From Eledone cirrhosa (taxonomy: Eukaryota), in assembly GCA_964016885.1 (NCBI GenBank), contig OZ024741.1, positions 66,650,001 to 66,714,000 of the forward strand: a DNA stretch of 64,000 nucleotides, read 5' to 3'. The notes below the pieces were generated by a model. The model saw only the letters and a program-made list of their open reading frames with translations. It did not search any database and had not been told where the DNA came from. A program made the translations under genes and the position numbers. Position 1 is the first letter of the stretch. Each line of letters opens with the position of its first letter. Positions 11,698 through 63,922 of this stretch are shown piece by piece.

Positions 11698-11881
11698 TAT
11701 ATATATATATATATATATATATATATATATAAGGGTTAAAATACAGGAGCGTGTTGGAGTAAAACACCCTCTTCGTATTATAGAAATGACAGTAAAAGGT
11801 ATAGCTCAATGTAATTAAACAGAGCCGAAGAATTATGAAAGTAAAACAAAGAAGCCTTCAATACATCAAAAGTCTTTATTA

Positions 11882-11919
11882 GCCAACAATGTTTCGTCCT
11901 ATTAAGGACTCATCAGGGC
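11882..11919 (-). ncRNA. Canonical minimal type I hammerhead (Naiad pLTR)
   Basis: GCC-CUGAUGA-GUCC-UUAAUA-GGAC-GAAAC-AUU-GUU-GGC, followed by AAUAAA. Confidence 0.9.
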
Positions 11920-13669
11920 AAATAAAACAAGAAGTATTATCGGCCAATACAAGCCAGAAACTCCGAAGAATATGGAGTGTACATACACTAAAGTATTGCA
12001 AGATTATGGGTAAAAATATATAATAAAAATCACTAAGGAGGTGTATAACATTTAGAACCATATTACAAATATAGTCCAAAGCAAAAAAACCCTAGAGCTA
12101 AACAAAGGTGGTTATATAGAGCAGGTATTATATATAATACAATATAATATAACATAATATACCTTTACCAATATTAAAATTACAATAAAAATCAAAAAGT
12201 ACAATATACATATGTATATATGTACGCACACGTACGCACATATACACATACATCAATACACATATCCATCTTCAACAGCACAAATTAAACCTTATTAAGA
12301 GTTTAAATATAAATAAGCATGATAGGAATAAAAATAATAATAATAATAATAATACATATACCCAATATACATGAGGTAATAATATGATATTATTATAAGT
12401 AGCACATATAATATATAATAAGCTATACAATTATATACTATATAATATGATATAATAGAATAGATAGTCTCCGGTTAATTTACACAAACAATATAGATGT
12501 CACAATAATACTATAATAATAATATAATATAATAACATATATAATATACAATATATAATGGCATTCAAGTTAACAAATCAATTCATATAGAGTTACAGAG
12601 TAGGTGAGGAAAATAAATTGTACAATACCCAAAATTATGATGGTACAAAAATATAAACATGTTACATGGTATATAAAGTTTAACATATCACATTGTTACA
12701 TATAATCAAAAGTAAGTAATAAGGATCGATGGTCCAATAACAAATACAATATAAAATAATTAGCATAATATAATATATAATTACTTATAATTACAAGGTT
12801 GGTAAACAGACATATATGTGGATGAGTGAGTAAGGGCCAGACAGTAAATATAAAGCACAGTAGTATTACAAATAAAATAAAATAAAATAAAATAAAATAA
12901 ATAAATAGATAGAATCAACCGGAAATTAAAAAACAAAAACAAAAGTATACATTTAGGTCTCACATGCCGTTAAGTAAAAACTTAGGAAATAACCCCGGTA
13001 AATGACTCGAAAACCCTATTTGATAAATTAATATTAAAAAATACTTAAAATATCCAATAAGGCAATACAACATTAGCTATGGTTTAAGTAATCAAAGTTT
13101 ATAAACGTTAATATTTCATTACAAATATTTACAAAAAGGAATGAAATTTTCTACTATCATATACATAACGATATCTAAAAAACTGACTTAAGCAGAATTA
13201 TGGTAGGCTAATAGGGACAGAAATAAAGAAATATATGGAGGATACAAAGGGGCATAAAATCATAGTCCATATACTATATTAAATAATAGAAAGGAGCGTA
13301 AAAGAGGGGGGGGGGGATTAAATATAATCATAATCAATTTGGAGGGGTTGACAATAAGTTTATGTGCGCATGGGGGGGGGGGGTTATCCAAAGAAGAATC
13401 CAAATAAAAATAAAATAAAATAAAATAAAATGAAAATAAAATAAAATAATGTAAAATATATAATCAGATATATACTCATAAGGTGTTAATAGTGAAAATT
13501 TAATGCGTAAGAAGATAGATATGGTATAGTAGCCAAAAGATTATGAGAACTAGAATAAAGAGTTGTCAGAAACCAATGATAATAATGATGATAATAATGG
13601 TGGTAAACAAAAAAACAAAAAGAATCTAAACTAAAAAATAAGTAATGGAATATATCAGCTAATGGATAC

Positions 13670-60700: not shown

Positions 60701-61214
60701 ATACGTGTATATATATATATATATATATATATATATATATGTGTGTATATATAATGCAAGCACAAACGTTATCTACAAAACACTTTTATACGCAGATATA
60801 CGCTATAAATCTCATGTATATAAGAACTTATAAGCAAATATATACTACAACGTACACATACACACATACATATACACATACACATACACATAGACATACA
60901 CACATACGCAAGTATATCCGAGAGAACACAAACACATACATGTTTATATATACAGTTGTATTCTATATATACAGGTGGGTCTATATACACACGGGCCCGT
61001 TGCCAGGCTGGTTGTACTGCGGGGCTTTGGCACATTTTCTAGGAGAGTCTTCTTTCGTAAGGAACATATTTCAGGAAGATGTTTTCTTTTTTTATATATA
61101 AACTCCTGTTTTCTGAATCTAAGTAAGCGCCATTAAATGGTGGGAGGTGTGTGTGGGGTGGTGGGGTGGTGGTTTTATTGACCAGCCAGTGCACCCCCTC
61201 ATGGCCACATAGAT

Positions 61215-63922
61215 ATTTGCATATATCTACTATAAAACGCACACACACACACACATACACACACACATACATACACATATACATACACGCACATACTAAC
61301 ACACACACACACATACACATACACACACACATACATACACATACACACACACATACATACACATTCACACACATACACACACATACATAACACACACACA
61401 TACACACACCCATACACACACATACATACACATATACATACACGCACATACATAACACACACATACACACATACACACACATACATACACATATACATAC
61501 ACGCACATACATAACACACACATACACACACATACACACACACATACATACACATATACATACACGCACATACATAACACACACACATACACACACATAC
61601 ACACACATACATACATACACATATACATACACATACATACATAGCACACACATACACACACACACACACAGACACACAGATATCCGTAAGTAGATCATCA
61701 TCATCATCATCATCATAGAGAACACGAACACATACTCAAACACAAACAAGTATATATACATATATATGTATATATACACACGCACACACACATATATACA
61801 CACACACACACACACGCACACCACACACACACATATATATATATATATAGTTAATAAATGAAGCAAAACAAAACATAGGAACTAAAATTACAGTTATATT
61901 AAGATTCAATCGGGGAAAACCAGTTAGTAAGGCACTCAATACATTTCTAGAGTGTAAACTTCAAGTTTGATATATATACAAATATATATATATATATATA
62001 TATATATATATATATATATATATATATATATATATACACATGTGTGTGTGTAGCAAAATTGGCAACATGTACAACACACACACACATACACACACATGCA
62101 GGATGTCCCACAAAAATGTATAACACTTCAAAAGCATTCAAATAAACATGTGTATATATTTTGGGGGGGACACACTGTATGTATTTTTGACTACACACCT
62201 ATACATAAATATTTTCCTATATATAGTATAAAATAGACGTAACGATATATATATATATATATTTTATTCTTTTATTGTCTTATTTATGTCAGTCATTGTA
62301 CCACCGCCATGCTGGAGCAACCCCTTTTAACGATTTAATTGGTTCATATCGATGCTAGCACGTATTTCAGTCTTGTACTTGCTCTATCACTATTATTTTT
62401 GAAGTCGGACCCTTTATTTTAGGGGATTTCATTAAAAAAACAACTGTTTTTAAGCTGTGTAAATATAAACACAAGCACCAACACAGAAATAGATACACAC
62501 ACACACACACACACACACCCATGCACACACACACACACACACACACACGCACACACACACATATATATATATAAGCAAAGGTATATTATATAACAGATAA
62601 AACAATATCAAAATACACACACAGATACCGACACTCAAACATATGTACACACACACAAGCACACATATATACACACACGCACACACATACATAAACAAAT
62701 GTATTATTATATAAGAGATAAACAAATACTAAAACACACACAGATATCAACACACACACAAATACGCACATACATATACACACACACACGCGCACATACG
62801 CACACACATATACACACACGCACACACACACACATACGCACACACATATACACACACACACACGCGCACATACGCACACAAATATACACACACGCATACG
62901 CACATACGCACACAAATACACACACGCACACACATATACACATACGCACACACACGCACATACGCACACACATATACACACACGCAAACACACACATACG
63001 CACACACACACATACGCACACACATATACACACACACGCGCGCACATACGCACACAGATATACACACACACACACGCACATATGCACACACATATACACA
63101 CACACATACGCACACACATATACACACACACGCGCGCACATACGCACACAGATATACACACACACACACGCACATATGCACACACATATACACACACACA
63201 TACGCACACAAATATACACACACGCACACGCACATACGTACACAAATACACACACACGCACACACATATACACATACGCACACACACGCACATACGCACA
63301 CAACTATACACACACGCACACACACATACACACACACACACATACGCACACACATATACACACACACGCGCGCACATACACACACAAATATACACACACG
63401 CACACGCAGATACGCACACACATATATACACACGCACACACACATACATACGCACAAACATATACACACACGCGCACATACGCACACAAATATACACACA
63501 CGCACATGCACATACGCACACAAATACACACACACGCACACACATATACACATACGCACACATACGCACACAACTATACACACACGCACACACACATACG
63601 CACACACATATACACACACACGCGCGCACATACGCACACAAATATACACACACGCACACGCACATACGCACACACATATACACACACGCACACACACACA
63701 CATACGCACACACATATACACACACACACGCGCACATACGCACATAAATATACACACACGTACACGCACATACGCACACAAATACACACACACGCACACA
63801 CACATACGCACACACATATACACATACGCACACACACGCACATACGCACACAAATACACACACACACACACACACATACGCACTCACATATACACATACG
63901 CACACACATGTACACACACACA
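61215..63922. repeat. Complex CA-rich mini/microsatellite arrays (CACATA; CACATACGCACACA)
   Basis: Direct reading, mainly 61215-61680 and 62745-63922. Confidence 0.9.

What the first reader, a model, noticed from the sequence alone, without database searches (positions are those of the whole stretch)
11803..61954. Shared 3' stem-loop RCUC-Nx-GAGY downstream of otherwise unrelated hammerheads
Seen: roughly 35-90 nt before the (TA)n or (CA)n junction, different families carry the same hairpin. Examples: UACUC..uuGAGUA (50072-50092, G), UACUC..ucGAGUG (43636-43658, E), ACUC..uuGAGU (60556-60579, H), GCACU..cgAGUGC (42480-42495, B), a similar one at 57867-57881 (L), CACUC..uuGAGUG (61933-61954, minus), and the covariant GCUC..cauuGAGC in the Naiad element (11803-11826, minus) and at 53300-53333. 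Family A, linked to a different GIY-YIG type, lacks it. Inference: a clade-specific cis signal for RT binding or template positioning. I do not know of a description of it.
Basis: partly seen in the sequence, partly recalled or inferred. Interest (0 to 1): 0.75.

Follow-up and report, generated by a model that had tools for sequence, protein, structure and literature searches.

The report
Twin bulged hairpins mark retrotransposon ends
Many otherwise dissimilar families of one telomerase-related jumping gene share a small bulged hairpin motif, usually in two copies, and their inserted copies end a few letters before one copy or the other, which likely marks where the copying enzyme starts and would explain the one-sided tail these elements leave.

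Summary
The motif is real but differs from what was described. It is a bulged hairpin, RCUC-[inner stem]-loop-[inner stem]-UN-GAGY, found in 30 repeat families of this genome. Eleven families with this hairpin or a close variant are linked to Hydra-clade Penelope-like ORFs; the 'Naiad' label is wrong. Four non-Hydra families with mapped ends lack it. Three of six published Hydra consensi from other phyla show it intact.

Families examined closely have two 3' ends. The short end lies 2-10 nt before this hairpin. The long end lies a similar distance before a second copy, seen only in read-through leaders (10 of 14 intact; absent in G). Head-to-head insertions pair one long with one short end (108 of 153 pairs; 45 unclassified; no long/long or short/short).

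Most likely each hairpin binds the element's protein and sets a cDNA start just 5' of it, so the Penelope 'tail' would be the hairpin spacing. This is inferred; cleavage or stop models remain. The conserved bases match the TAR/7SK arginine-sandwich pattern. Seven literature searches found no description. This scan noted the same twin hairpins twice before, elsewhere in this genome.

The parts
11804..11825 (-). Hairpin 1 of family N (G-C outer pair, 3-bp inner stem, UU bulge)
   Evidence: predicted fold is the bulged hairpin, z -2.9
11732..11831 (-). Tail of family N: from the short-end position (11832) to the long end at the (TA)n junction
11892..11916 (-). Hammerhead core of family N
   Evidence: CUGANGA...GAAA pattern; activity untested
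13885..15312 (-). 5'-truncated Hydra-clade ORF of family N: RT/thumb, then C-terminal GIY-YIG with CxCx5C linker; one in-frame stop in this copy
42454..42493 (+). Hairpin 1 of family B (6-bp inner stem, UC bulge); corrected coordinates
   Evidence: Hydra ORF link in L292
42349..42385 (+). Hammerhead core of family B
43637..43657 (+). Hairpin 1 of an E subfamily
26810..26829 (-). Hairpin 1 of family E
   Evidence: ORF link
50073..50091 (+). Hairpin 1 of family G (this copy has one broken inner pair)
50007..50030 (+). Hammerhead-like core of family G, long-ended copy
49844..49905 (-). Inverted partner of the G copy, ending at the short end just before the hairpin
38267..38285 (+). Hairpin 1, further G copy
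56769..56787 (-). Hairpin 1, further G copy
53300..53333 (+). Hairpin 1 of family X (6-bp inner stem)
   Evidence: Hydra link
57820..57879 (+). Hairpin 1 of family L (long loop); corrected coordinates. L also occurs as a 2-kb tandem unit without a detectable ORF
57706..57747 (+). Hammerhead-like core of family L
60556..60579 (+). Hairpin 1 of family H
   Evidence: ORF link
60415..60471 (-). Inverted partner of the H copy, ending at the short end
52299..52322 (-). Hairpin 1, further H copy
56920..56943 (-). Hairpin 1, further H copy
11571..11594 (-). Hairpin 1, further H copy (2 inner pairs)
61934..61953 (-). Hairpin in a tail-only copy (2 inner pairs); no ORF link found
840..872 (+).
5919..5948 (-).
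20846..20867 (-).
8890..9753 (+). Family A control: non-Hydra GIY-YIG, hammerhead core and a 54-nt tail without the motif

Best explanation
Hydra-clade Penelope-like elements carry a conserved bulged hairpin motif, usually in two copies, between the hammerhead and the start codon, and their insertions end a few bases 5' of one copy or the other; each hairpin is likely bound as RNA by the element's RT-endonuclease protein, which would start cDNA synthesis just 5' of it. Shown from sequence: the motif and its covariation, its link to Hydra ORFs, two end positions per family in register with the two hairpins, and one long plus one short end per head-to-head insertion. Inferred: the structure forms on the sense RNA, and two protein copies on hairpin 2 and hairpin 1 prime from the two nicked strands of a (TA)n target. 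That would give one cDNA that copies through hairpin 1 (long end, with tail) and one that starts before it (short end), joined at their 5'-truncated ends. On this view the tail is the spacing between the hairpins. Also inferred: recognition uses a U.A-U base triple and an arginine, as in TAR/7SK.
For: Oriented enrichment specific to a 2-nt U-first bulge. 27 of 75 multi-copy clusters pair in the 2-nt register against 6, 6 and 4 in registers 1, 3 and 4. The outer pair, not required in selection, is A-U in 16 and G-C in 11 of 30 families, with 1 G-U and 2 mismatches. The three G-C families among 11 with ORFs are not one clade (AU test p 0.0017). Smallest gap between end and hairpin, short/long: N 6/6, B 4/5, H 5/3, E 2/3, L 4-7/1-8 nt. 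Hairpin 2 was predicted for H and E and then found: GCTC 6 nt after the H long end in 86 of the first 100 listed matches, with the full hairpin and a Hydra ORF behind it. 108 long/short pairs, no long/long or short/short. In vitro, the anole Poseidon element starts cDNA at two internal sites that bound its tail, on both nicked strands, and is predicted to be a dimer (PMC11167929). The conserved bases match the arginine-sandwich pattern (PMC6189040).
Against: No binding or priming data exist for any Hydra element. The autonomous G subfamily has no intact hairpin 2 in 9 of 9 copies, yet G has long ends, spread over about 12 nt. Family A and other non-Hydra families make long and short ends without this motif, so it is not required for tails in general. 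Folding does not tell the strand: mean pair probability is above 0.5 in 19 of 30 on sense and 18 of 30 on antisense, and allowing A-C instead of G-U gives 25 clusters against 27. The hairpins are weak (about -2 to -11 kcal/mol) and several are no better than shuffles. Inner pairs 1-3 and the bulge U were part of the selection. Family counts are not corrected for relatedness except for the outer pair. One Hydra-linked family (e15) has a 1-nt bulge, and 3 of 6 published consensi are partial or lack it.
Confidence: 0.62

Rival explanations
1. The hairpins mark cut sites, not start sites: the endonuclease, or a host nuclease, cleaves the RNA or a single-stranded DNA intermediate a few bases 5' of each hairpin, and copying starts from or is trimmed to that cut.
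For: It predicts the same register of ends. Craig et al. attribute the tail to endonuclease-mediated resolution. Frangieh et al. report that the D. virilis endonuclease needed the tail for recognition. Folding cannot tell the strand.
Against: In the one in vitro system the tail boundaries are RT start sites on RNA that extends beyond them. Spans of 19-111 nt between the half-sites argue against a double-stranded DNA site.
Confidence: 0.17
2. Hairpin 2 sets the single cDNA start. The short end is a stop: the cDNA folds back and second-strand synthesis halts before hairpin 1, where protein or RNA is still bound.
For: It also gives exactly one long and one short end per inverted pair.
Against: A start and a stop would have to share the same offset to the same motif. 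The inverted arm can be the long one while the forward tandem ends short (L303). Copies with a short end and no partner found nearby also occur.
Confidence: 0.1
3. The motif is a promoter, splicing or translation-control element of the 5' leader, and its register with the ends is a by-product.
For: Both hairpins lie upstream of the ATG, hairpin 2 about 30-75 nt before it. Penelope pLTRs carry promoters.
Against: Family L keeps both hairpins in a 2-kb unit without a detectable ORF. Hairpin spacing differs widely between families, yet both ends follow the hairpins. Spans are not multiples of three (11/11/8).
Confidence: 0.07
4. Shared ancestry of a leader sequence with no current function.
For: All ORF-linked carriers in this genome belong to one clade.
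Against: Their proteins are only about 25-60% identical and loops and flanks are unalignable. The stems are kept through paired changes, at least two of them independent.
Confidence: 0.04

Closest known systems
Hydra clade of C-terminal EN+ Penelope-like elements (Craig et al. 2021, PMC8557442)
   Same: C-terminal GIY-YIG, RW motif, DKT, CxCx5C linker, hammerheads, (TA)n targets, inverted 5'-truncated partners and a one-sided tail. The motif is visible in 3 of the 6 consensi in its supplement.
   Different: The main text has no occurrence of 'hairpin' and the passages read name no tail structure. Tails here run about 55-150 nt rather than 30-40. The paper suggests endonuclease resolution as the tail's origin.
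Internal RT initiation in the Anolis Poseidon element PAc (Frangieh et al. 2024, PMC11167929)
   Same: Two start sites downstream of the hammerhead bound the tail; both target strands are nicked and extended; a stem-loop region is involved; a dimer is predicted.
   Different: PAc starts inside an AC-rich stem-loop within the ORF of another clade, and no motif conserved across families was reported. Here the signal is non-coding, duplicated and lies 3' of each end. The PAc sequence file could not be read, so the motif was not checked there.
Arginine-sandwich motif of HIV TAR and 7SK ASM3 (Pham et al. 2018, PMC6189040)
   Same: Purine, bulged U, then G-C, A-U and G-C pairs; 7SK ASM3 has a 2-nt UU bulge.
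   Different: Here the bulge is on the 3' strand of the hairpin (permuted). Base triple and arginine binding are untested. Any likeness would be convergent.
3' stem-loops that recruit RT in LINE/SINE pairs, R2 3' UTR, hepadnavirus epsilon (recalled, no call)
   Same: A small RNA structure selects the template and positions priming.
   Different: As recalled, LINE and R2 signals lie 5' of the start and are copied. Here the positioning hairpin lies 3' of the start and hairpin 2 is not carried into the insertion.
Non-LTR retrozymes / minimal hammerheads of PLE pLTRs (PMC4209133; bioRxiv 10.64898/2026.07.22.740005)
   Same: Short hammerhead-bearing pLTR-derived copies in large numbers.
   Different: The parts read (2 of 4 and 2 of 5) deal with the ribozyme and with distribution, not with a downstream end signal.

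Membership tests
Hydra-clade PLE (carrier elements) | Single ORF with C-terminal GIY-YIG endonuclease after the RT | tested here: met
   N and B full-length ORFs; weak Pfam GIY-YIG match for the window EN, 22.4 bits against a 22.6 cut-off
Hydra-clade PLE (carrier elements) | RWK-type N-terminal motif | tested here: met
   RxRW in all 7 of 11 linked families whose N-terminus was covered; the K is R or C in several
Hydra-clade PLE (carrier elements) | DKG changed to DKT | tested here: met
   8 of 9 families covering the site; F39 copy is degraded there
Hydra-clade PLE (carrier elements) | CxCx5C linker and no CCHH in the endonuclease | tested here: met
   CNCRVSANC in N; Cx5C part seen in B, G, F8, F18, X; CCHH absent in N and B by inspection
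Hydra-clade PLE (carrier elements) | Insertion into (TA)n; hammerhead in the pLTR | tested here: met
   H and X lack the canonical core
Hydra-clade PLE (carrier elements) | Placement in the Hydra clade on a tree with reference PLEs | not tested
   The tree held only sequences of this genome
   RT precedes EN and a hammerhead core is present (definition)
Arginine-sandwich motif (TAR/7SK type) | Bulged pyrimidine after a paired base, followed by G-C and A-U pairs | tested here: met
   Purine before the bulge in 26 of 30 families, then U-N-G-A-G paired with C-U-C against the description; U and GAG were part of the selection
Arginine-sandwich motif (TAR/7SK type) | U.A-U base triple and arginine intercalation | not testable with these tools
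   Needs NMR, chemical probing or binding assays
RT-recruiting cis RNA element | Fixed register to element ends | tested here: met
   G long end is the exception
RT-recruiting cis RNA element | Structure forms on the sense RNA | tested here: inconclusive
   Sense and antisense fold alike
RT-recruiting cis RNA element | Specific binding by the RT and requirement for priming | not testable with these tools
   Needs the in vitro assay
Rfam RNA families | Match to a curated family | tested here: not met
   No match over the H hairpins at E up to 10 in a 471-nt scan; the 150 of 263 window hits listed were nearly all microRNA models below their cut-offs

The most novel reading that the evidence does not exclude
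A permuted TAR-like arginine-binding hairpin, present twice per element and conserved across Hydra-clade retrotransposons of several animal phyla, is the docking site for the two subunits of a telomerase-related RT dimer. Each subunit starts about six bases 5' of its hairpin on an opposite target strand, which explains both the Penelope tail and the head-to-head insertions. The look-alike in Chara Chlamys elements would make it older than the clade.
Probability: 0.3. Interest if true: 0.85.

Novelty: new variant of a known kind. Interest (0 to 1): 0.66.

Why it matters
The one-sided tail and inverted partners of Penelope-like elements have been an open mechanistic puzzle, and only one element has been reconstituted. 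A defined, duplicated 20-30 nt signal in register with both ends turns the puzzle into simple experiments: delete the bulge, move a hairpin, change the spacing, and predict the new ends. It also gives a marker for Hydra-derived non-autonomous repeats and for element boundaries in genomes where they are very abundant. PLE RTs are the sister group of telomerase, so how they pick a template start bears on RT-RNA recognition in that lineage. A portable internal-start signal could be of use in RT-based genome writing.

Tried and rejected
Rfam scan of the window: swamped by microRNA models on microsatellites; only 150 of 263 hits were listed. A focused scan of the H end found nothing.

MAFFT alignment of 25 hairpins did not align the 5' arm across different loop lengths. 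No covariance model or tool-based pair count was made; pairs were counted in a script.

Coding explanation rejected: the motif lies upstream of the ATG and spans are not in frame. Naiad label rejected.

Strand test by folding and by G-U against A-C: no discrimination. A 2-nt bulge of any sequence is not more frequent than in shuffles (163 against 140-164); only the U-first, end-linked set is. Single-copy clusters show no register preference (8, 10, 10, 3 of 179).

The family set of 30 is the 27 clusters at or above 50%, minus 2 dropped as low-complexity (55, 60), plus 5 added by eye (0, 8, 16, 28, 36). F50 short-end counts are a TA-run artefact and were ignored.

A leader for family A was not found; the tandem fetched sits in a satellite. 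The non-Hydra control rests on 20 of 150 endonuclease hits, chosen by longest open frame, and most of those families had unresolved ends. The PAc sequence file was unreadable, and the supplements of the bioRxiv preprint were not seen. No structure prediction or complex job was run.
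Full report
SETTING. The window comes from a 3.0-Gb, TA-rich animal genome; it looks cephalopod-like, which is my inference, and I did not identify it. It is crowded with short repeats between microsatellites, many with hammerhead-like cores. I added 700 kb of unselected sequence from seven chromosomes and about 1.2 Mb of loci chosen by family or protein search.

OBSERVATION. All eight sites are there. The loose pattern is near repeats but symmetric: 31 downstream and 30 upstream of 72 hits in the window, 85 and 86 of 811 outside. 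Comparing families showed a stricter form: RCUC, an inner stem, a loop, the inner stem's partner, a 2-nt bulge starting with U, then GAGY. This form gives 18 hits in the window against a mean of 2.95 in 20 shuffles, and 92 against 38 in 764 kb (8 shuffles). Outside the window 40 of 74 hits have a repeat 20-110 nt downstream (background 0.056) and 16 upstream. Non-U, 3-nt and 1-nt bulges give 4 of 65, 1 of 49 and 5 of 22. With sites chosen only by TNGAGY near a repeat, 27 of 75 multi-copy clusters pair in the 2-nt register against 6, 6 and 4 in others; 179 single-copy clusters show no preference.

STRUCTURE. I used 30 families: 27 clusters, minus 2 dropped, plus 5 added by eye. The outer pair was not required by the selection; it is A-U in 16, G-C in 11, G-U in 1 and mismatched in 2. 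Inner pair 1 is U-A 18, C-G 8, A-U 3, G-U 1; inner pair 2 is G-C 17, A-U 10, G-U 3. These inner pairs were required to pair, so they show variety rather than prove pairing. Inner pair 4, not required, pairs in 16 of 27 against 10.6 expected (p 0.02); pair 5 is not significant. Spans run 19-111 nt in all three frames. On a tree of 11 ORF-linked families the three G-C families are not one clade (AU p 0.0017), so the outer pair changed in step at least twice. The hairpins are weak and the strand cannot be told by folding.

CARRIERS. The 'Naiad' has RT followed by a C-terminal GIY-YIG with a CxCx5C linker, DKT and RxRW, the marks of the Hydra clade (Craig et al. 2021, section read). Eleven families with the hairpin or a close variant connect to such ORFs: N, B, H, G, E, X, F8, F18, F21, F39 and e15, the last with a 1-nt bulge. 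L also occurs as a 2-kb tandem unit without a detectable ORF. Four non-Hydra families with mapped ends lack the motif: A, a relative of A, the L314 family and L321. That control is thin: 20 of 150 endonuclease hits were fetched. Read by eye in the paper's supplement, the motif is intact in Hydra-2_Amil (coral), Hydra-2_Ajap and, twice at the 5' end, Hydra-1_Ajap (sea cucumber). It is altered in Hydra-1_Crog, partial in Hydra-1_Amil and not seen in Hydra-1_Obim. A look-alike opens three related Chara Chlamys consensi, perfect in one and with an outer mismatch in two. I saw none at the six pairs of Naiad termini displayed.

TWO ENDS, TWO HAIRPINS. N, G, B, L and H each have a short and a long 3' end, mapped with queries reaching well upstream; E does too. 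The short end lies just 5' of the hairpin, so the hairpin opens the tail. In read-through copies the region is the 5' leader of the next ORF, and a second, smaller hairpin of the same form follows the long end. Smallest gaps, short/long: N 6 (9 of 13) and 6 (24 of 27); B 4 (9 of 14) and 5 (11 of 27); H 5 (42 of 46) and 3 (74 of 82); E 2 (20 of 25) and 3 (19 of 29); L 4-7 and 1-8. Counting bases shared with the TA run as target adds 1-7 nt. Short-end modes of 18 families fall 2-12 nt before the arm, though that scan saw only about 20 nt upstream. I predicted hairpin 2 for H and E. For H, 86 of the first 100 listed matches (437 in all) have GCTC exactly 6 nt after the long end; for E, 13 of 21 share one continuation. 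The pattern asked for CTC, but not for the fixed position, the full hairpin or the Hydra ORF found behind it. Of 14 families with a leader, hairpin 2 is intact in 10 (N, B, H, E, L, F8, F12, F16, F35, F39; judged partly by eye, F35 with an open terminal pair), imperfect in 3 (F21, F27, F52) and absent in G, 9 of 9 copies of one subfamily. G's long ends are spread over about 12 nt.

PAIRING OF ENDS. Of 153 head-to-head pairs in five families, 108 are long/short, 45 have an unclassified arm, and none is long/long or short/short. In loci not chosen for the family the figures are 50 of 73, 23 and none.

MECHANISM. Frangieh et al. (main text read) showed for an anole Poseidon element that both target strands are nicked and extended, and that cDNA starts at two internal sites bounding the tail; they predict a dimer. 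The simplest reading here is one rule used twice: protein binds a hairpin and starts just 5' of it. A start at hairpin 2 copies hairpin 1 and gives the tail; a start at hairpin 1 gives the short partner. This is inferred (0.62). Cleavage at the same places (0.17), a fold-back that stops at hairpin 1 (0.10), a promoter or translation role (0.07) and mere ancestry (0.04) remain. The invariant bases (purine, bulged U, G-C, A-U, G-C) are those of the arginine-sandwich motif of TAR and 7SK ASM3 (Pham et al. 2018, passages read). Hydra proteins carry arginine-rich stretches. This match is a lead and comes from secondary structure only.

KNOWN AND NEW. The elements, their hammerheads, tails and internal initiation are known. 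Seven full-text searches gave no description of this motif or of twin signals; subscription papers and Repbase notes are not covered. Seen: PMC8557442 passages, one section, supplement parts 1, 2, 52, 53 and three searches; PMC11167929 parts 1-2 of 4, sequence file unreadable; PMC4209133 parts 1-2 of 4; bioRxiv 10.64898/2026.07.22.740005 parts 1-2 of 5, supplements not seen; PMC6189040 passages. LINE, R2 and epsilon comparisons are recalled. Two earlier notes of this scan on other parts of the same genome reach the twin-hairpin reading. I had noted it before looking, and they are not independent support.

VERDICT. A real, apparently unpublished cis motif of Hydra-clade Penelope-like elements, with a sharp and testable link to both insertion ends. 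New variant of a known kind; interest 0.66.

Noticed in passing
window 60415-60547; L340:1430-1500: Family H has no CUGANGA core just upstream of its hairpin. It carries a GAAA-capped GC-rich stem and a further GC-rich segment with no Rfam match; possibly another ribozyme or structure.
   Followed up: partly
L311 and L292, upstream of the X hairpin: Family X has a hammerhead-like core beginning CCGAAGA instead of CUGANGA, with a long stem II.
   Followed up: no
PMC8557442 supplement S6, Chlamys-1/4/6_cBra 5' ends: A look-alike of the bulged hairpin opens three related Chara Chlamys consensi.
   Followed up: partly
L331-L339: A very young autonomous G subfamily (about 98% identity over 40 scored hits) lacks an intact second hairpin.
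   Followed up: partly
L297, L298 (family L): About 1.98-kb head-to-tail units without a detectable Penelope ORF that keep the hammerhead-like core and both hairpins: a likely non-autonomous Hydra partner.
   Followed up: partly
L342-L344: Short H tandems of about 200-260 nt made of leader plus end, that is retrozyme-like mini-elements derived from an autonomous family.
   Followed up: no
window 44674-46725 and 23648-24036: Family D: hammerhead-bearing tandem and inverted copies with two ends but no motif; its autonomous partner was not found.
   Followed up: partly
C3/C5 segments and L307: Long tandem arrays of hammerhead-bearing units (38- and 30-member clusters; 469-nt unit in L307) without the motif.
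   Followed up: no
window 29250-33706 and 40273-41953: Fragments of a non-LTR RT with a C-terminal restriction-like domain, unrelated to the Penelope elements by appearance; one is interrupted by a B copy at 42062.
   Followed up: no
L183:4203-6887; L292:3567-6146: Hydra ORFs N and B carry a long low-complexity insert between thumb and linker, making them about 860-900 aa; the N unit with its 2-kb 3' UTR is about 4.7 kb, above the under-3-kb size reported for the clade.
   Followed up: no
junctions of H, E, B and N: 1-7 bases at the junction are shared between element and (TA)n target, which hints at short primer-template pairing, unlike the non-homologous start reported for PAc. Not tested against chance.
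   Followed up: no
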